Position numbers and translations under genes: made by a program | Shown here: positions 1 to 6,121 of the stretch, in pieces | Position numbering within the stretch: the first letter of the stretch is position 1 | Layout: every line of letters starts with the position of its first letter | Notes under the pieces: generated by a model | The model's input: only the letters and a program-made list of their open reading frames with translations | Database searches by the model: none | Told to the model about the DNA's origin: nothing | Source of the DNA: a virus | Lineage: Duplodnaviria > Heunggongvirae > Uroviricota > Caudoviricetes | DNA: 64,000 nt | Direction: 5' to 3' (one strand) | IMG/VR virus record: IMGVR_UViG_3300045988_004821

Positions 1-49
1 GCCCCAGATAAAGAGCTTTACCACTAAATCCTAAACTGGAGATTCAAAA
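1..49 (+). promoter_or_regulatory. Partial copy of conserved early-gene leader cassette (CACTAAAT..CCTAAACTGGAGATTC..ATG)
   Basis: Shares the CACTAAAT / CCTAAACTGGAG / SD-ATG leader with four full copies at 928, 1496, 2090 and 2422. Confidence 0.5.
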
Positions 50-613
50 ATGAAATGCTATCACGGCACTACTCTGAAAAACTTTGTAAACCTGCTGAAT
101 GGTGGCGACAAGCCGGAAGGAATCTGGAACTGCTCCTACATGGATGATTGTTTCTACGTTTACCCAATGAACAAGATTATCAAAACGGAATGTTTGGAAG
201 ATGAGGAAGATTCTTACATTCGTGAACGCTGCATTCAAAACGCTTTAGAATCTGGGCTTATCACGGCAGCTTTCCAAATGGAAACGCAGGACGTAATTGT
301 CATTGAGATGGATATCCCAGAGGAAGAGCTAGAGGATGATTATTCTTGTGACAACATGAGCGATATCGCCAGCTTTACCGGACACTTTGATAAAGATTGG
401 ATTATTGGCCTTCACTCGACGAAATTTAGTGCGATGTATGCACCTTTCTTTGTACCAGATGCAACTAACCGCAATTTAGGCTATGTTGACGATGATTTGT
501 TAAGTATGGCGAAAATTGTACAGAATAGCGGTGATAGTTCCGTGTTTTGTGACCTGCTGGATAAAATCACGGCAAACATCACAGAACGCAATTTAAAAGA
601 CTTTTTAGGTTAA
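50..613 (+). CDS. hypothetical early protein (187 aa)
   Basis: ORF directly after conserved leader with GGAG Shine-Dalgarno; no recognisable motif. Confidence 0.55.
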   Translation: MKCYHGTTLKNFVNLLNGGDKPEGIWNCSYMDDCFYVYPMNKIIKTECLEDEEDSYIRERCIQNALESGLITAAFQMETQDVIVIEMDIPEEELEDDYSCDNMSDIASFTGHFDKDWIIGLHSTKFSAMYAPFFVPDATNRNLGYVDDDLLSMAKIVQNSGDSSVFCDLLDKITANITERNLKDFLG

Positions 614-676
614 TCAGTACAAAGACACCAACTTCCAACTTAAGGCCCATACAGGGCCATTTAAAGGGCTTAAATC

Positions 677-910
677 ATGCTTACAACCGTTTATCTTATC
701 CTTTCTATTTGTAATGGTCATTCATGTGATTTTAAAGGGCTTGAGGAGTTTACAGGGAGTAAAGAAAATACTATTCAAGTTTGCCAGATAGCAAGACAAG
801 ACTATCCCGCCAGTGATGATATTCAATGCTACTTTAAGACAGAAGATGAAGACGGCGTCTATTTTGACAGTGTCGATGGTCAATATGAAATTATCATTGA
901 AAAAGACTAG
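677..910 (+). CDS. hypothetical protein (77 aa)
   Basis: Small ORF in same orientation; upstream hairpin GGCCCATACAGGGCC. Confidence 0.4.
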   Translation: MLTTVYLILSICNGHSCDFKGLEEFTGSKENTIQVCQIARQDYPASDDIQCYFKTEDEDGVYFDSVDGQYEIIIEKD

Positions 911-927
911 ACAAGCCTGATAAAAGT

Positions 928-1001
928 CTGTAAACTGTCAATCAACGGGGAGGGAATGACCTTCCCCACTAAATAAAGTCCTTAAACTAGGAGATTCTAA
1001 A
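928..1001 (+). promoter_or_regulatory. Conserved leader cassette copy (hairpin GGGGAGGG-AATGA-CCTTCCCC + ACTAAATAAAGTCCT + SD)
   Basis: Near-identical ~75-bp element ends at the ATG of the next ORF; 8-bp stem with one G-T wobble. Confidence 0.6.
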
Positions 1002-1343
1002 ATGGCTTATGTAACTGTAATTACCGATAAAGAAGATTCATCTTGGTCAACTCAAGTAAGTGATAAGATGTCACCTATGCAGTGCCTAAAATACTTTGAG
1101 CAGTGGAACAAAGGCGAGGATGTCAGCCCCTTTCAAGTGATGCAAATCATCCATACAGATAACGAAGGGCACAAAACGACACTTAATAGCGAGTATTATG
1201 CAAATCGTTTTGAGAGTCGAGTTGAAACGATGAAGGGGCTGCGTGAGGCCGGATATGGGCACATTGCCGCCTTGTTATGGGATAGCCTACTAAAAAATCA
1301 GCGTATCAGCTATGTAAAACCTGAAAAAATATTCATCAGTTAA
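1002..1343 (+). CDS. hypothetical early protein (113 aa)
   Basis: ORF immediately after leader cassette and SD. Confidence 0.55.
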   Translation: MAYVTVITDKEDSSWSTQVSDKMSPMQCLKYFEQWNKGEDVSPFQVMQIIHTDNEGHKTTLNSEYYANRFESRVETMKGLREAGYGHIAALLWDSLLKNQRISYVKPEKIFIS

Positions 1344-1375
1344 TCAATAACTTACAAAAAACTTTTAAAAAAGTG

Positions 1376-1404
1376 TTGACAATACCCCTTGACATTGGTA
1401 ACTT
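1376..1404 (+). promoter_or_regulatory. candidate sigma70-type promoter (TTGACA-17-TAACTT) with A-rich upstream tract
   Basis: TTGACA at 1376-1381, 17-bp spacer, TAACTT; a second TTGACA lies inside the spacer (tandem box). Confidence 0.35.
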
Positions 1405-1495
1405 TGTTCGAGGGGGTTTATCTAAAAGGGATTCACTTAAAAGATTCTTTATAGATAAGCTCAAAAAAATTACTTGCAATCAACTATCAAAACAA

Positions 1496-1564
1496 GTAAA
1501 TTACTAATCAACGGGAAGGCAATAACCTCCCCACTAAATAAAGTCCTAAACTGGAGATTCTAAA
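1496..1564 (+). promoter_or_regulatory. Conserved leader cassette copy (variant hairpin GGGAAGGC..CCTCCCC)
   Basis: Same leader architecture; stem sequence differs from the other copies but pairing is retained. Confidence 0.55.
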
Positions 1565-2095
1565 ATGAACAAATTTCAAGCTATCAACTTCATTCGTTCA
1601 AATGCTGTAATGTCTAAGCCTGTAAAAGACACATACGAATTCCGTTGTGATGGGGTACATTTCGCAACAATCACCAAATCAGAAAACGGGGCTTATTACG
1701 TTCATCGTCGTAATGTTTCAACCGTTGTAGTCTCTCACTTTATGCAAGCTGTAGCAGAATTATTACCGTTATTCTTAGAGATTTACTTAGATGAGTGTAA
1801 AAACGTTCACAACCACGTTAAAAACCTTTTAAACGGTTATAAAATGGCTTATGAACGTTCTATCAAGTCACTAAACAAGTTTTACAATGCACCTGCAAAT
1901 ACTGTTTCAATGGCTTATGATGTAAACGGTGAGTTAGTTAGTCTCTTTAAAGTGGAAGAAATTAAACTGTATAATCTACGTCCTAGTGGTTACTCTAAGA
2001 CTCTTGGTGAAGGTTTAACGTTCAATATCAAGAACTTAGAAAAAACTTTAAAAGATATTGAAAAAGATATTGACGAGACAATAAAAAGCCTGTAA
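1565..2095 (+). CDS. hypothetical early protein (176 aa)
   Basis: ORF after leader cassette. Confidence 0.55.
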   Translation: MNKFQAINFIRSNAVMSKPVKDTYEFRCDGVHFATITKSENGAYYVHRRNVSTVVVSHFMQAVAELLPLFLEIYLDECKNVHNHVKNLLNGYKMAYERSIKSLNKFYNAPANTVSMAYDVNGELVSLFKVEEIKLYNLRPSGYSKTLGEGLTFNIKNLEKTLKDIEKDIDETIKSL

Positions 2096-2161
2096 ATTGT
2101 CAATCAACGGGGAGGGAATGACCTTCCCCACTAAATAAAGTCCTAAACTGGAGTTATCAAG
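2090..2161 (+). promoter_or_regulatory. Conserved leader cassette copy
   Basis: TGTAAATTGTCAATCAACGGGGAGGGAATGACCTTCCCCACTAAATAAAGTCCTAAACTGGAG then ATG at 2162. Confidence 0.6.
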
Positions 2162-2425
2162 ATGGAAAACGTAGAATTAACCACACTTTTACAAATTGCA
2201 ACTGACAAAGAAGATGTAGCACTGTTTCACCGTATCGAAAGCGATTTATTCAATGGTGAAATCATCAAAGAATCTTATGAAGTTGTCGGATTCAAAGATG
2301 GTAAAGCGTTTGGCTTTTTTGACCTCGACAAAGGCAACGCTGTTACAAAATATGATGTTTTATCTTGTGAGATTCTTACAAGATACAACGAAAAAAGGCT
2401 TGCAACATACGCCAATATGCAGTAA
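2162..2425 (+). CDS. hypothetical early protein (87 aa)
   Basis: ORF after leader cassette. Confidence 0.5.
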   Translation: MENVELTTLLQIATDKEDVALFHRIESDLFNGEIIKESYEVVGFKDGKAFGFFDLDKGNAVTKYDVLSCEILTRYNEKRLATYANMQ

Positions 2426-2505
2426 ATTACTAATCAACGGGGAGGGAATGACCTTCCCCACTAAATAAAGTCCTTAAACTACTTCCTAAACTGGAGAATC
2501 TAAAA
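2422..2505 (+). promoter_or_regulatory. Conserved leader cassette copy (with internal CCTAAACT duplication)
   Basis: Same hairpin and leader; ATG at 2506. Confidence 0.6.
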
Positions 2506-2754
2506 ATGGCAACTATCCGCGCTACTGTTAACGAGTTCGGTTTTTCCTCTCTGGATGTTAAATTTGACATTGCAGGCACTGATAACGCCTTTGAAATGGT
2601 GAAAGGTCTTATCAGTCAGACCATCAAAGATTATAATCCTTCGGATGAGTTCTGGGAGGAAACAAAACAAGAAGTTCTCAAGGATGGTTATACTTATCAC
2701 TATTGGGGAGAAAAAATTGTCTCCCTGTACTACAACAAACAAGATTATAACTAA
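2506..2754 (+). CDS. hypothetical early protein (82 aa)
   Basis: ORF after leader cassette. Confidence 0.5.
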   Translation: MATIRATVNEFGFSSLDVKFDIAGTDNAFEMVKGLISQTIKDYNPSDEFWEETKQEVLKDGYTYHYWGEKIVSLYYNKQDYN

Positions 2755-2792
2755 TCGACGCAGCGGGGCTAAATAGCCCCAGATACCTGAAC

Positions 2793-2817
2793 AGCCCCTT
2801 TAAATAGGGGCTTTTTT
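2793..2817 (+). terminator. rho-independent terminator (AGCCCCT..AGGGGCT + TTTTTT)
   Basis: GC-rich hairpin followed by T-run just after the 2754 stop; a second hairpin GGGGCTAAATAGCCCC lies at 2765-2780. Confidence 0.7.
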
Positions 2818-2820
2818 ACG

Positions 2821-4400
2821 TCTATCCAATCCTTATACAATCCCTTTCCCTTTCCTTTCCAGAATCTTATCAGACCTTAAAAGCAATAACTCTATAGTCC
2901 ACTCTATAACCTTTTATCAAATCAACTTAAATATAAGCCCATAACCCGAAAGGGAAGGGCAACCCCTTAAACGCTCTATAACGCCCTATAACAGCCTTAT
3001 CAACCTAACTTAAGGGGTTGCATTAACTCACCCTAAAAAGCCCTTCCTAGAGCTTCCCAGAGACTTAAAAGAATCTTATAAGGGTGTAAGCTTTATCATC
3101 TCATTAGTATTCTTGTGAATATCTAAAAAGGGTTTGTTAGTGTCTTAAAAGTATGTTATAGGGGGCTATAAAGTTGCTTAAAAGTTACGTAAAAGAGGCT
3201 ATAAAGTTACGTAAATGCTAGCCCCCTTAACATTTTCTTAACAATTTCTTAACAATCCCTACATAGTTATGCTTGTTAGAGACTTGTTAGCCCCTTGTTA
3301 AATCTCTGTTAAGACCACGTAAAAGCCTTGTAAGAGTCTTTGACATAGCCTTAAAAGCTCCTGTAAAGCTCTATAAAGAGGTGTCTGTACAGTTGGGGGG
3401 ATAGATACTAGGAAGAGACTTAAAAGAGCTTATAAAGAGCTATAGAGAGCTTTTAAGAGGTATGTTTAAGAGTTCACTAAGAAGGGAAAGGGAACGATAA
3501 GAAAAGAGTAGTGACCATGTTAATAGCTTGTTAAAAAGATTAAACACTTGTTAGAAACTTGTTAATTACCTTAACAAAATAACTCTTTAAAATTAACTTG
3601 TTAGCTCTTGTTAGTCATCTGTTAAGATTCTGTAAAGCCCTATTAAGTCTTGTTAGAAAACTGTTACAACCTTGTTAGACTTGTTAAGAATCTGTTAAGA
3701 CCTTTGAAGAGTTGTTAAGAAGATGTGAGAACTGTTAAGAGATTGTTAAGGATATTTTAAAATTTTGCAAAGTACTTGTAAGGGAGCTGTTAAGGGCTAC
3801 CAAGCAGATATACATCTTCTACAGATATTTTTCAGTTCCTTCAAAGACCCTAAAAAATGACTTGATAGTCCTATTTTATAAAAATTTTAAGATTCTGAAT
3901 AATTACCTATACAGCCTTTTAAAAATACAGGTAGAAACAGGCTTATAAGATACCTTGTTAGTACCGTGTTAGACCTTGTGAGATAAGGTCTGTAAAGATA
4001 TTCCTGTTAAGTTTGTTAAAACAGTCTATATAGAGGCTTAGTAGTACCTAGTGAACACCTATAGAGAGTAACATAGCTAACCTAGAGATTAAGAGGTGTA
4101 TAGGAGCTTCTAAGAGGGTATAGAGAGATGGTTAAGATGATTGTATAGGTTGTTTAGAAGGCTTGTTAGAAGAGTGTTTAGATGGCTATTTAGAAGGGCT
4201 ATACAGAGGGCTATTAAGACCACTAGATAGTTACTAAGATACTATATAGTACTATATAACTATATAGAGAGTAAGATTAAGAAGGTTGTTAAGAAGGATA
4301 GATATTTTATTCACATATGATGGTGACCCAGAGGTTGGGACAACCGATAAAATTTTATAAAAATTAAAAAGCCCCCAATTAAGGAGGCTCTTAAGATATT
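2821..4400. repeat. ORF-free AT-rich region with dense arrays of short motifs (CTTGTTAG, CTGTTAAGA, CTTAAAAG, CTATAAAG, TTTAGAAGG), many at 11-12 bp spacing
   Basis: No ORF of 60 aa or more on either strand across 1.6 kb; more than 17 TTGTTA-type motifs in 3520-3790 alone. Confidence 0.6.
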
Positions 4401-5024
4401 TTAAATCAGTGTTTCCAGAACTGTCTTCAGTGATGACTTGGTTGTCTGATAAAAATGAGTAAATCCATTGTTGTTATCGAATATCTGCATCATGATATCA
4501 TCACCCTTGATTGGGTAAACTCGGATATCATAGTGAAAACCATTAAAGACACAAGAACCACTACAGAATGCTCTAAAGTCATCCACTGAGATGTACTCTT
4601 CATGACCTGTGATTTTTATACAAACACCTTTACTCGGTCTCTTAGGGTTGATATCTTCCATCACAGACATACTCTGTCCACCAAGAGATACCATAGTGAC
4701 CACTTTACGGTTCTTCTGTTTAAAGTACATCTTAACTTTCTGCAAAGTGTCTTCATAGAACGGATAAGACCTTTCTACAAAGATTCCTTCAAGTGGCTCT
4801 TTACCATTTTCAACTTCTCTGTTATGCCGTACTGCAAAGATAATTTGTTCGAACCAGTCAAGATTTTCTTCGGAGAGTGCTTCCCGAATATCACTCCAAT
4901 CAAGAACTAGATAGTTACCTTCAACTTCTTTTAAGTTATCTTTTTCCATATCTATCACACCATTATCGTAAAACTTGATATTCTGGTACTGCGAATTTAT
5001 TACTATTGTTCTTGATGAGGTCAT
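4401..5024 (-). CDS. hypothetical protein (207 aa; start may be the internal Met giving 4401-4949)
   Basis: Minus-strand ORF; overlaps upstream gene by 62 nt if the first ATG is used. Confidence 0.5.
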   Translation of the reverse strand: MTSSRTIVINSQYQNIKFYDNGVIDMEKDNLKEVEGNYLVLDWSDIREALSEENLDWFEQIIFAVRHNREVENGKEPLEGIFVERSYPFYEDTLQKVKMYFKQKNRKVVTMVSLGGQSMSVMEDINPKRPSKGVCIKITGHEEYISVDDFRAFCSGSCVFNGFHYDIRVYPIKGDDIMMQIFDNNNGFTHFYQTTKSSLKTVLETLI

Positions 5025-5427
5025 CCTCTGAAACTAAAAATGTAATACCACATAAGTGTCTGTAACGACTATCATACTCGAATATCTTAAACAGATATTT
5101 ACCATCATGATAAACCTGTTGCACTTCACCTTCTGCAACAATCTCACCTGTAATAAAATTTTTTAGTTTATACACATTACCAACTTTAGGTACTGTTTTC
5201 ATCTCAGGCTCTTTTAGTGCTACACCTATTTTTGCATCACCGAGTAAATGAGAACTTTCAAAAGCTACGTGTTTCATATAAGCTTCTGAGCATTCCCAGA
5301 TAAAACAATGTACAAGAACCTTAGCAGCATGTCTTGAACAGTTCAACTTATCACAAATTTCTGTGTACATCTCATCTTTAGTCGAGTTGTCAAGCATTGC
5401 TCTTTGCACTATCTCTTTTACTTTCAT
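4963..5427 (-). CDS. hypothetical protein (154 aa)
   Basis: Minus-strand ORF in tightly packed operon. Confidence 0.5.
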   Translation of the reverse strand: MKVKEIVQRAMLDNSTKDEMYTEICDKLNCSRHAAKVLVHCFIWECSEAYMKHVAFESSHLLGDAKIGVALKEPEMKTVPKVGNVYKLKNFITGEIVAEGEVQQVYHDGKYLFKIFEYDSRYRHLCGITFLVSEDDLIKNNSNKFAVPEYQVLR

Positions 5428-5845
5428 AAGCTCTCCGAATAACCCTATTAAGCATCTCTAAAGTCAGCTTTCCAGATTCTAAATGTGGCATAACAAGCTT
5501 TAAAGCTTTTTCAACATCATGCACAACATCTATTATACCTTCCGCGTAGGCTTCTACAAGGATATCTTTTACATTTTGTGATTTACCTTTTTGTGGTATC
5601 ACTAGACGCATATCAAACTCATTTGCTTGAGGATGGTTCTTACCACGCCAGAAACCGTCCTTATCAAAGCTTATAAAGTTATCCTCATTAAAATTAATAC
5701 CACAAACCTTAAACTTATCTAAAACTATGCAGTTGAGAGGGTAATCATCACTTGCATCATTCATTCCAAGAAACTTAACAGTAGCTATATACCTCTGTGT
5801 CTTTGAATCTACAATGTCAAGTTCTTTACCTATGTACTCTTTCAT
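5390..5845 (-). CDS. hypothetical protein (151 aa)
   Basis: Minus-strand ORF. Confidence 0.5.
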   Translation of the reverse strand: MKEYIGKELDIVDSKTQRYIATVKFLGMNDASDDYPLNCIVLDKFKVCGINFNEDNFISFDKDGFWRGKNHPQANEFDMRLVIPQKGKSQNVKDILVEAYAEGIIDVVHDVEKALKLVMPHLESGKLTLEMLNRVIRRAYESKRDSAKSNA

Positions 5846-5848
5846 CTC

Positions 5849-6121
5849 TTAAATCCTATCAATTTGAAACTCTTCAGGTAACTCAGCCACCACTTTTAAA
5901 TAGTAAGCATCAGAGATTGTATGCTTTGTCTCATAGCTACCATTCTTAATCCAGTTATAATTTTCTGGTATTCCATCATCATTACAAAAACCTGAGTACA
6001 TAATTGCTCTGTGGATTATATTTTTATTAGAGTATGCAACATCTACAATATAGTATGTTTTTTCTTTCCAACCACCTTCAGGTTTACAAATACCTGAGAT
6101 ACCCTCTAATTCTGGTGTCAT
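5849..6121 (-). CDS. hypothetical protein (90 aa)
   Basis: Minus-strand ORF. Confidence 0.45.
   Translation of the reverse strand: MTPELEGISGICKPEGGWKEKTYYIVDVAYSNKNIIHRAIMYSGFCNDDGIPENYNWIKNGSYETKHTISDAYYLKVVAELPEEFQIDRI

What the first reader, a model, noticed from the sequence alone, without database searches (positions are those of the whole stretch)
1..2505. Five copies of a conserved hairpin-plus-leader cassette in front of consecutive small early ORFs
Each of five ORFs (50, 1002, 1565, 2162, 2506) is preceded by a near-identical ~75-bp unit: TCAATCAACGG, an 8-bp hairpin GGGGAGGG/CCTTCCCC, then ACTAAATAAAGTCCTAAACTGGAGATTCTAAA and the ATG. One copy (1496) has a different stem sequence but keeps the pairing. 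This looks like a repeated transcriptional or translational control element (promoter, processing site or regulator-binding site) used to express a set of early genes in concert.
Basis: seen in the sequence. Interest (0 to 1): 0.5.

Follow-up and report, generated by a model that had tools for sequence, protein, structure and literature searches.

The report
Repeated promoter–hairpin–RBS cassettes in phage
The repeats are modular expression cassettes of a Felix O1-like phage (host-type promoter, G/C hairpin, standard ribosome-binding leader) placed before small early genes of unknown function; they closely match the "PeSL" cassettes known from T4-type phages, so this is a real but largely ordinary feature.

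Summary
The window comes from a Felixounavirus (Felix O1-like myovirus; 94% identical to Escherichia phage VpaE1_ev108).

**What is there.** Four of the five claimed copies are real, near-identical "type A" cassettes. The fifth (bases 1-49) is the cut-off 3' half of a different "type B" cassette. It shares only the last ~30 nt of leader.

**Anatomy.**
- an A-tract;
- a -35 hexamer;
- exactly 17 nt of spacer;
- a -10 hexamer (TAAAYT in the window);
- 7 nt, then AAC, then the hairpin.

This geometry holds in all 37 copies from six genomes, across 12 unrelated spacer classes.

**The hairpins.** The stem changes sequence but keeps pairing. G·T wobbles far outnumber A·C mismatches, most clearly in type B (28 to 1), so the sense strand, most likely the RNA, is what folds. 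No T-run follows either hairpin, so neither is a canonical intrinsic terminator.

**Distribution.** In the close relative, 13 cassettes form one ~6-kb array in the early region. ORFs between cassettes are gained, lost and moved among relatives, and one junction is a chimera of two cassettes.

**Comparison.** This matches the published PeSL definition, but in Ounavirinae rather than T4-like phages. No transcription start has been mapped, and the hairpin's exact role is unresolved.

The parts
1..49 (+). 3' half of a type B cassette, cut by the window edge. End of the hairpin 3' arm GCCCC (1-5), AGATAAAGAGCTTTAC (6-21), shared leader with SD GGAG (38-41). ATG at 50.
   Evidence: Identical to complete type B cassettes of relatives, e.g. 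L003 11916-12004 upstream of the same ORF family.
50..613 (+). ORF, 187 aa, unknown function (phrog_3303)
900..1001 (+). Type A cassette 1. A-tract 900-904; -35 TAGACA 908-913 (its TAG is the stop codon of ORF 677-910); 17-nt spacer; -10 TAAACT 931-936; predicted start near A944/A945; hairpin 947-967; leader 968-1001 with SD GGAG 990-993.
1002..1343 (+). ORF, 113 aa, unknown function (phrog_4318)
1463..1564 (+). Type A cassette 2 (weak-stem variant). A-tract 1463-1469; -35 TTGCAA 1474-1479; -10 TAAATT 1497-1502; AAC 1510-1512; hairpin 1513-1532 (6 pairs with a bulge/mismatch); leader to 1564.
1565..2095 (+). ORF, 176 aa, unknown function (phrog_4725). Its stop codon TAA (2093-2095) is the first half of the next -10.
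2061..2161 (+). Type A cassette 3. A-tract 2061-2065; -35 TTGACG 2070-2075 (inside the upstream ORF); -10 TAAATT 2093-2098; AAC 2106-2108; hairpin 2109-2129; leader to 2161.
2162..2425 (+). ORF, 87 aa, unknown function (phrog_7022). Its stop codon TAA (2423-2425) overlaps the next -10.
2391..2505 (+). Type A cassette 4. A-tract 2391-2396; -35 TTGCAA 2400-2405; -10 TAAATT 2423-2428; AAC 2436-2438; hairpin 2439-2459; leader with a partial internal duplication (CCTTAAACTA|CTTCCTAAACTGGAG, about 2472-2496).
2506..2754 (+). Last ORF of the array, 82 aa, unknown function (phrog_4559)
2765..2787 (+). Type-B-like hairpin remnant GGGGCTA AA TAGCCCC followed by AGATACC. No promoter and no ORF follow it.
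   Evidence: Read from the sequence; fold.
2793..2818 (+). Canonical intrinsic terminator closing the array (stem AGCCCC..GGGGCT followed by TTTTTT). Corresponds to t23 of Felix O1.

Best explanation
Each unit is a self-contained early-gene expression cassette of a Felix O1-like phage. It works like the PeSL (promoter-early stem-loop) cassettes of T4-type phages.

**Type A layout.** An A-rich upstream tract, a host sigma-70 promoter (-35, 17 nt, TAAAYT), and a start predicted at the A's of AACGGG. A G-run/C-run hairpin begins 2-3 nt from the RNA 5' end. A standardised A/U-rich leader follows, with GGAG 7-10 nt before the ATG.

**Type B layout** (window 1-49, complete in relatives). The same leader is used, but an 8-9-bp hairpin spans the promoter spacer and the -10. 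It is therefore transcribed only by read-through from upstream.

**Inferred mechanism.**
- Host RNA polymerase fires from many of these promoters at once right after infection. Each small ORF is then expressed independently of its position.
- The hairpins act in the sense RNA. As a 5'-terminal stem-loop (type A) the hairpin would protect the message from 5'-end-dependent decay. As an intercistronic stem-loop in read-through RNA (both types) it would attenuate transcription or block 3' exonucleases.
- Because the ~100-nt cassettes are near-identical, they also serve as homologous-recombination sites. Through these sites, cassette-plus-ORF modules are deleted, inserted and moved.

**Shown here:** the repeat, promoter geometry, hairpin conservation, strand asymmetry, array restriction and cassette-bounded gene shuffling.
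**Inferred, not shown:** promoter activity, the start site and the hairpin's molecular role.
For: **Identity and spread.** The window is a Felixounavirus. The cassette occurs in 246 phage records, all but one named Ounavirinae or enterobacterial phages, and on 87-90-kb viral contigs.

**Promoter.**
- All 37 type A copies from the window and five relatives show -35, exactly 17 nt, -10, 7 nt, AAC, hairpin.
- In 12 spacer classes with unrelated spacers, all 12 have a -35 match of at least 4/6 (chance about 0.05 each). All 12 have a TAnnnT-type -10 (chance about 0.03 each).
- Information peaks at TTG, at TA...T and at an A-tract around -44, and is low in the spacer.
- The -10 changes between genera but stays promoter-like: TAAATT, TAAAGT, TAATAT, TAGTAT.
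- In type B, TTTACA plus 17 nt leads to a TAnnnT hexamer in about 94 of 100 distinct copies.
- Felix O1 encodes no RNA polymerase, and VpaE1 and Felix O1 genomes give phage in E. coli cell-free extract.
- Felix O1 ORFs 13, 16, 20, 21 and 22 peak at 5 min.

**Hairpin.**
- Type A has 28 distinct stems of 4-8 bp, always starting 3 nt after AAC. Loops range from 4 to 9 nt with no shared sequence.
- On 108 model hits, 94% of cells are paired. The covariation score is 0.151 against 0.085 in shuffles (0 of 500 reach it) and at most 0.06 when partners are slid.
- Type B has 47 variants with compensatory changes at pairs 3, 7, 8 and 9.
- In type B, G·T cells number 28 against 1 A·C. This asymmetry points to folding of the sense strand.
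- The distance from AAC to GGAG varies from 26 to 54 nt, while the -10-to-hairpin distance is fixed.

**Modularity.**
- 13 cassettes (7 A, 6 B) lie in one 6-kb array of VpaE1_ev108 and nowhere else in that genome.
- ORF families are present, absent or moved between cassettes. The same ORF follows type A in one phage and type B in another.
- The VpaE1_ev108 junction where one ORF is missing is a chimera of the two AYO145A cassettes that flank that ORF.
- The ORFs have no known function.

**Match to PeSL.** The published definition fits point by point.
Against: - No transcription start, transcript end or reporter data exist for these elements in the literature I could search.
- The -10 hexamers match the consensus only 4/6, and a generic promoter scan of the region finds no more sites than in shuffles. 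The case therefore rests on comparative conservation, not motif strength.
- Types A and B place the hairpin on opposite sides of the predicted start, so '5'-end protection' cannot be the shared role.
- Neither hairpin is followed by a T-run, which weakens the 'terminator' half of the PeSL analogy.
- Covariation is modest: 3 of 7 pairs change on both sides, and the three outer G-C pairs hardly vary. G-run/C-run stems also pair well when slid by 1-2 columns.
- Copies are related by descent and recombination, so counts are not independent events.
Confidence: 0.75

Rival explanations
1. The hairpins are rho-independent terminators, and the unit is simply terminator plus ribosome-binding site between genes. 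This is how some GenBank records annotate it. Under this reading the conserved upstream hexamers are incidental.
For: The ASO1A record labels these hairpins 'rho-independent terminator predicted by WebGeSTer'. The PeSL paper reports that one stem-loop reduced lacZ expression about as much as the rrnB T1 terminator. The G·T asymmetry shows that the type B hairpin matters in read-through RNA.
Against: The sequence after the stem is ACTAAATAAA (type A) or AGATAAAGAG (type B), with no T-run. The terminator scan finds only the true terminator at 2793-2812 on the + strand of the array. A type A hairpin sits about 3 nt after its own predicted start, so it would abort its own transcript if it were efficient. 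The -35/17/-10 conservation across unrelated spacers is unexplained by this reading.
Confidence: 0.1
2. The cassettes are RNA processing sites in one long early transcript, as in the T7 early region. A host RNase (E or III) would cut at or next to the hairpin, separating cistrons and leaving stable hairpin ends. Internal promoters would not be needed.
For: A stem-loop followed by a single-stranded A/U-rich stretch is the usual context of RNase E cleavage (general knowledge). The sense-strand asymmetry supports an RNA-level role. The array is bracketed by canonical terminators.
Against: Stems of 4-9 bp are far shorter than RNase III substrates (general knowledge). This reading does not explain the strictly spaced -35 and -10 hexamers. 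It could coexist with promoters rather than replace them.
Confidence: 0.1
3. The hairpin, or the flanking ATAAAG-type motifs, is the binding site of a phage-encoded regulator. Candidates are a translational repressor, an antiterminator of the lambda N/boxB kind, or a repressor that shuts off early promoters together.
For: The element is repeated before a co-regulated gene set. Some relatives carry GNRA-type loops, GAAA and GAGA. In type B, two palindromic ATAAAG-NN-CTTTAC copies flank the promoter and hairpin.
Against: Loop sequence and length vary freely (AAUGA, AAUAA, GAAA, GAGA, AAGCAA, AAGAUAAA, AACA) and stems range from 4 to 8 bp. That argues against sequence-specific recognition of the hairpin. 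ATAAAGAGCT is only marginally enriched in the window: 14 matches against 7.5 expected, a count reached by 2 of 100 shuffles. No candidate regulator was identified.
Confidence: 0.1
4. The hairpins are DNA-level elements: recombination sites or small mobile hairpin repeats that spread through the early region. Any effect on expression would be secondary.
For: Cassettes mark indel and translocation boundaries, and one junction is chimeric. In type B the hairpin is flanked by direct repeats of ATAAAGNNCTTTAC. The PeSL authors speculated that a protein might recognise GGGG...CCCC stems.
Against: All copies share one orientation, lie exactly upstream of ORFs and sit in fixed register with promoter hexamers. 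The chimeric junction crosses over in the leader, not the hairpin, as plain homologous recombination would. The G·T over A·C bias needs single-strand folding of one strand.
Confidence: 0.08

Closest known systems
PeSL (promoter-early stem-loop) cassettes of T4-type phages RB49/phi1, T4/PST and KVP40/nt-1 (Arbiol et al. 2010, PMC2839356; Comeau et al. 2014, PMC4122927)
   Same: - A-rich tract, then a sigma-70-like promoter with a 17-nt spacer.
- A G-run/C-run stem-loop containing G·T pairs.
- The stem-loop position relative to the promoter differs between subclasses (after the -10, or spanning the spacer and -10).
- A Shine-Dalgarno sequence and ATG at the 3' end.
- About 100 nt long, intergenic, clustered before small ORFs of unknown function.
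- Located at the boundaries of ORF gain, loss and replacement between close relatives.
- The TTTACA -35 of type B matches the TTTACW reported for T4/PST.
   Different: - The host phages are Ounavirinae, not T4-like.
- blastn found no match outside Felix O1-like phages, so the elements are analogous rather than demonstrably homologous.
- The leader is far more uniform here.
- The type A stem-loop lies just after the predicted start, not before it.
- All copies sit in one array rather than in several hyperplastic regions.
- Promoter activity, terminator activity and mini-circles are untested here.
Direct repeats listed in the Felix O1 genome paper (Whichard et al. 2010, PMC3185647)
   Same: The 57-bp repeat CTTTACATGGGGCTTAAAAG...CCCCAGATAAAGAGCTTTACCACT is type B. 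The 39-bp repeat TTGACACTGGTTTTTAGATAGATTAAATTACACATCAAC is the promoter part of type A. Both lie between genes 15-21 of the same array.
   Different: The paper lists them only as direct repeats. It does not call them promoters, and it states that the source and timing of transcription in the phage are unknown.
5'-terminal stem-loop mRNA stabilisers of E. coli, such as the ompA 5' UTR (general knowledge, not checked here)
   Same: A stable hairpin is predicted within 2-3 unpaired nt of the RNA 5' end in type A.
   Different: The start site is predicted, not mapped. Type B places its hairpin upstream of the start, so this cannot be the role common to both types.
RNase III sites between T7 early genes
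   Same: Repeated intercistronic hairpins in a phage early region.
   Different: The stems here are 4-9 bp and each has its own promoter. T7 sites are long irregular duplexes in a single transcript (general knowledge).

Membership tests
PeSL cassettes (Arbiol 2010 / Comeau 2014) | Sigma-70-like early promoter with -35 and -10 boxes about 17 nt apart | tested here: met
   All 37 type A copies have a 17-nt spacer. All 12 spacer classes carry a -35 match of at least 4/6 and a TAnnnT -10. Type B has TTTACA, 17 nt, then TAnnnT in about 94 of 100 copies. This is sequence evidence only.
PeSL cassettes (Arbiol 2010 / Comeau 2014) | [quoted passage not shown] | tested here: met
   An A-tract with 1.0-1.6 bits sits 7-9 nt upstream of the -35 hexamer (positions -45 to -43 counted from the AAC). 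Type B carries ATAAAGTAC before TTTACA.
PeSL cassettes (Arbiol 2010 / Comeau 2014) | Stable stem-loop, often G-run/loop/C-run, beside or overlapping the promoter, at positions that differ between subclasses | tested here: met
   In type A the stem-loop follows the -10. In type B, and in further classes of phiEa21-4, it spans the spacer and -10.
PeSL cassettes (Arbiol 2010 / Comeau 2014) | Ends in a Shine-Dalgarno sequence and start codon; intergenic, before small ORFs of unknown function | tested here: met
   GGAG lies 7-10 nt before the ATG. The ORFs match only PHROGs of unknown function and no Pfam family.
PeSL cassettes (Arbiol 2010 / Comeau 2014) | Clustered in a plastic region and associated with ORF insertion, deletion or replacement between close relatives | tested here: met
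   There is a single 6-kb array. The synteny map shows presence/absence and translocation of ORFs between cassettes. One junction is a chimera of two cassettes.
PeSL cassettes (Arbiol 2010 / Comeau 2014) | Demonstrated promoter activity, stem-loop attenuation, and mini-circle formation | not testable with these tools
   These need reporter fusions, transcript mapping and inverse PCR.
PeSL cassettes (Arbiol 2010 / Comeau 2014) | Described so far only in T4-like myoviruses | tested here: not met
   The window and all hits are Ounavirinae. The PeSL papers do not mention Felix O1-like phages. This is a matter of host range, not of architecture.
Rho-independent terminator | G+C-rich stem-loop immediately followed by a T/U-run | tested here: not met
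   The stem is present, but the tails are ACTAAATAAA and AGATAAAGAG. The scan reports only 2793-2812 on the + strand of the array.
Lambda-type nut/boxB antitermination site | Short stem with a conserved GNRA-like loop recognised by an N protein | tested here: not met
   Loops vary in length (4-9 nt) and sequence among copies. Dozens of copies per genome would also be atypical.
RNase III processing site (T7 early type) | Long (about two helical turns) irregular RNA duplex | tested here: not met
   Stems are 4-9 bp.
Any Rfam family | Match to a curated covariance model | tested here: not met
   Nothing matches the cassettes in bases 1-4500 at E-values up to 5.

The most novel reading that the evidence does not exclude
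The cassettes could be an active, integron-like gene-cassette exchange system of virulent phages. In that reading the sense-strand G/C hairpin is recognised, as single-stranded DNA or RNA, by a phage or host factor. That factor would drive excision and reinsertion of ORF-plus-cassette mini-circles. ORFs of unknown function would then move between Felix O1-like genomes by a dedicated mechanism rather than by passive homologous recombination.
Probability: 0.08. Interest if true: 0.75.

Novelty: new member of a known kind. Interest (0 to 1): 0.38.

Why it matters
**For Felix O1 biology.** The genome paper left open where early transcription starts. These cassettes give a concrete, testable answer: a dozen or so host-type promoters, each driving one or two small ORFs.

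**For phage evolution.** PeSL-style promoter, stem-loop and RBS modules would not be a peculiarity of T4-like phages. They would be a recurrent way for virulent phages to plug small accessory genes in and out without disturbing neighbours.

**For practice.** Felix O1-like phages are used for Salmonella and E. coli biocontrol and can be rebuilt in cell-free systems. The cassettes are therefore ready-made insertion points and expression parts for engineering. Current GenBank labels for these hairpins ('terminator') are probably misleading.

Tried and rejected
- **Rfam.** A scan of bases 1-4500 at a permissive threshold found nothing on the cassettes.
- **Generic promoter scan.** It gives no more sites than shuffles for the region (14 against 13.5). 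It lists only two of the four type A promoters, so motif matching alone was not informative.
- **MAFFT alignment of the hairpins.** It put the short stems out of register. I replaced it with a covariance-model alignment and an outside-in pair table.
- **Alternative type B promoter.** I tested the leading TAAAGT as a -10. No -35 is conserved 16-18 nt upstream: most copies match 2-3 of 6, which is chance level. Rejected.
- **ATAAAGAGCT as an operator-like motif.** Enrichment in the window is marginal: 14 matches against 7.5 expected, reached by 2 of 100 shuffles. Not pursued.
- **Literature.** Searches for Felixounavirus start-site mapping, or for PeSL in Felix O1-like phages, found nothing. The VpaE1 paper does not mention promoters. 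The phiEa21-4 genome paper (Lehman 2009) and a 2026 preprint on promoter-terminator coupling could not be opened.
- **Not checked.** Whether the phage has a T4 RegB-like nuclease that cuts GGAG. There was no direct comparison with RB49/phi1 PeSL sequences; membership rests on the published description.
Full report
**Source of the window.** Bases 1-6000 match 259 phage records, and the best is Escherichia phage VpaE1_ev108 at 94% identity. All close hits are Felix O1-like myoviruses (Ounavirinae, Felixounavirus). Window position 1 corresponds to about 11.96 kb of that record. It lies in the block of small ORFs downstream of rIIA/rIIB.

**Checking the observation.**
- The repeat is real. The 31-nt core AATCAACGGGGAGGGAATGACCTTCCCCACT occurs three times exactly (940, 2102, 2432), with none expected by chance.
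- A fourth, diverged copy lies at 1508-1532.
- The leader core occurs five times, all on the + strand in the first 2.5 kb and nowhere else in the 64 kb.
- The main hairpin folds as 8 bp including one G·U. The variant at 1513-1532 keeps six pairs with a bulge and is much weaker.
- The element before ORF 50 is not a fifth copy. Bases 1-49 are the 3' half of a different cassette, cut by the window edge, and share only the ~30-nt leader.
- ORF 677-910, inside the run, has no cassette.

**Anatomy.**
- an A-tract;
- a -35-like hexamer (TAGACA 908, TTGCAA 1474, TTGACG 2070, TTGCAA 2400);
- exactly 17 nt of spacer;
- TAAAYT as the -10;
- 7 nt, then AAC, then the hairpin.

In copies 3 and 4 the -35 and spacer lie inside the upstream ORF, and that ORF's TAA stop is the first half of the -10. 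In copy 1 the TAG stop of ORF 677-910 is the first half of the -35.

**The array in relatives.** In AYO145A, ASO1A and VpaE1_ev108 the array continues about 4 kb upstream of the window start. About 14 consecutive 60-100-nt gaps carry one of two cassette types.
- Type A is as described above.
- Type B reads ATAAAGTAC-TTTACA, then 17 nt, then TAAAGT or TATCTT. An 8-9-bp hairpin (GGGGCTTA...TAAGCCCC) spans the spacer and -10. AGATAAAGAGCTTTAC and the same leader follow.

**Comparative test of the promoter.**
- I fetched the array from Suspvirus phiSUSP1, Mooglevirus Maleficent and Kolesnikvirus phiEa21-4. I also took 40 loci from viral contigs.
- All 37 type A copies from six genomes keep the same geometry.
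- The 72 distinct upstream sequences fall into 12 spacer classes with unrelated spacers. All 12 have a -35 match of at least 4/6 at exactly 17 nt (chance about 0.05 each). All 12 have a TAnnnT -10 (chance about 0.03 each).
- Column information peaks at TTG, at TA...T and at an A-tract, and is low in the spacer.
- The -10 differs between genera yet stays promoter-like.
- In type B the hexamer 17 nt after TTTACA is TAnnnT in about 94 of 100 distinct copies, even though it lies within the loop and 3' arm of the hairpin.
- An alternative promoter placement for type B has no conserved -35.
- Felix O1 encodes no RNA polymerase. Felix O1 and VpaE1 genomes yield phage in E. coli extract.
- Felix O1 ORFs 13, 16, 20, 21 and 22 of this array peak at 5 min.
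- I therefore regard sigma-70 promoters as the best-supported core function, although no start site has been mapped.

**The hairpins.**
- Type A shows 28 distinct stems of 4-8 bp, for example GGGGAGGG/CCTTCCCC, GGGAGG/CCTCCC, GGGGC/GCCCC, GGGA/TCCC and GGGC/GCCC.
- They always begin 3 nt after AAC. Loops are 4-9 nt with no common sequence.
- A covariance model found 108 copies. On these, 94% of cells pair and 3 of 7 pairs change on both sides.
- The covariation score is 0.151 against 0.085 in shuffles (0 of 500 reach it) and at most 0.06 for slid partners.
- The signal is modest. The three outer G-C pairs hardly vary, and G/C runs still pair when slid.
- Type B shows 47 variants with compensatory changes at pairs 3, 7, 8 and 9. 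One is G-C to T-A in phiEa21-4.
- Type B has 28 G·T cells against one A·C. Type A shows the same direction of bias (12 against 2, tallied from the pair table).
- That asymmetry means the sense strand folds, most simply as RNA.
- The type B hairpin lies upstream of its own predicted start. It can therefore act only in read-through transcripts from upstream cassettes.
- The type A hairpin would sit 2-3 nt from the 5' end of its own message. Its distance to the -10 is fixed, while its distance to GGAG varies from 26 to 54 nt. This ties it to the promoter or start rather than to the ribosome-binding site.
- Neither hairpin is followed by a T-run. The only canonical + strand terminator at the array is at 2793-2812, at the array's end.
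- The 'terminator' labels in the ASO1A record are therefore doubtful.
- My inference is a generic structural RNA role: 5' protection in type A, plus attenuation or a 3'-exonuclease barrier in read-through RNA for both types. The variable loops argue against a loop-specific binding protein.

**Modularity.**
- In VpaE1_ev108 the 13 cassettes (7 A, 6 B) all lie between 8.4 and 14.5 kb on one strand. None lies elsewhere in the genome.
- I clustered the ORFs and mapped cassette types across seven arrays. ORF families are present in some phages and absent in others.
- One family sits at different places in two phages.
- Three families follow type A in one phage and type B in another.
- In phiEa21-4 the shared ORFs appear in a different order.
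- VpaE1_ev108 lacks one ORF that AYO145A has. At that site its single cassette matches AYO145A's upstream cassette for about 73 nt. It then switches to the leader allele of AYO145A's downstream cassette, a crossover within the leader.
- The six window ORFs match only PHROGs of unknown function and no Pfam family.

**Comparison with known systems.** The PeSL cassettes of T4-type phages are defined as follows:
- an AT-rich tract;
- a sigma-70-like early promoter with N17 spacing;
- a G-run/C-run stem-loop with G·T pairs, in one of five positions relative to the promoter;
- a Shine-Dalgarno sequence and ATG;
- clustering before small ORFs of unknown function in plastic regions;
- location at indel boundaries.

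Every sequence-level criterion is met here. Promoter activity, termination and mini-circles cannot be tested with these tools. The differences are as follows:
- The host phages are Ounavirinae.
- blastn found no similarity outside Felix O1-like phages.
- The leader is unusually uniform.
- There is a single array.
- The type A stem lies just after, not before, the predicted start.

The Felix O1 genome paper lists the 57-bp and 39-bp direct repeats that are type B and the type A promoter. It gives them no function and says the origin and timing of transcription are unknown. I found no paper that links these repeats to PeSLs or maps starts in this group. The phiEa21-4 paper could not be read.

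**Verdict.** The element is a new member of a known kind rather than a new kind. Interest is moderate. It explains early transcription in a widely used phage group and extends the PeSL idea beyond T4-like phages. It would not surprise a specialist, and the hairpin's precise role remains open.

Noticed in passing
window 1344-1486 (homologues: L001 5138-5356, L003 13299-13522, L005 10842-11038, L006 9014-9210): The unusually long gap before cassette 2 is highly conserved across three genera, but it carries 1-nt indels that rule out coding. It contains another promoter-like site (TTGACA 1376-1381, 17 nt, TAACTT 1399-1404) overlapped by a CCCC...GGGG inverted repeat. A conserved stretch GGGGGTTTATCTAAAAGGGATTCACTTAAAAGATTCTTTATAGATAAGC follows. 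It could be a small RNA or a protein-binding region. Rfam has no match.
   Followed up: partly
window 2830-4400: A 1.6-kb non-coding stretch lies between convergent gene blocks. It is packed with short repeats of 10-11-bp period: CTTGTTAG, CTTAACAATTT, AAGAGCTTATA, TGTTAAGAATC, and a 31-nt unit repeated about 4 times at 3620-3750. Many inverted repeats are also present. Its function is unknown; an origin, a packaging site or a protein-binding array are possibilities. The Andreotti record marks 'repeat_region' features in the homologous place.
   Followed up: partly
window 2472-2496 (same in L003 14412-14458): The leader of cassette 4 carries a partial internal duplication, CCTTAAACTA|CTTCCTAAACTGGAG. 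It joins the two leader alleles and looks like the scar of an unequal crossover between cassettes.
   Followed up: no
all cassettes; in the window, leaders at 980-993 versus 30-41, 1545-1556, 2142-2153: Two leader alleles exist: CCTAAACTGGAG (211 copies) and CCTTAAACTAGGAG (79 copies in 54 contexts). The extra T and extra A always occur together, with no single-insertion forms. They would extend a small stem (UCC/GGA to UCCU/AGGA) that pairs with the Shine-Dalgarno sequence. phiEa21-4 has an analogous CCUU...AAGG arrangement. This may be a weak SD-masking hairpin or simply tight linkage.
   Followed up: partly
type B cassettes of relatives, e.g. L003 11916-12004; window 6-21 is the second copy: The type B hairpin is flanked by two copies of a palindromic motif, ATAAAG-NN-CTTTAC. 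One overlaps the -35 and the other lies at about +3 to +17. A third ATAAAG often forms the -10. It may be operator-like or a duplication scar. ATAAAGAGCT is only marginally enriched in the window.
   Followed up: partly
window 614-676: ORF 677-910 is the only ORF in the run without a cassette. Its 63-nt upstream gap has a different small hairpin (GGCCC ATACA GGGCC, 644-658). The gap is conserved in AYO145A and VpaE1_ev108 but replaced by another sequence in ASO1A.
   Followed up: no
window 2765-2787: After the last ORF there is a hairpin GGGGCTA AA TAGCCCC followed by AGATACC. It resembles the 3' arm and start region of a type B cassette, but no promoter or ORF goes with it. It sits just before the true terminator at 2793-2818 and is probably a decayed cassette.
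   Followed up: no
GU169904.1 (Staphylococcus phage SA1), 133834-133936: A record labelled as a Staphylococcus phage carries six copies of this enterobacterial-phage cassette at 92% identity. This suggests that the record contains Felix O1-like sequence, either as a mixed assembly or through mislabelling.
   Followed up: no
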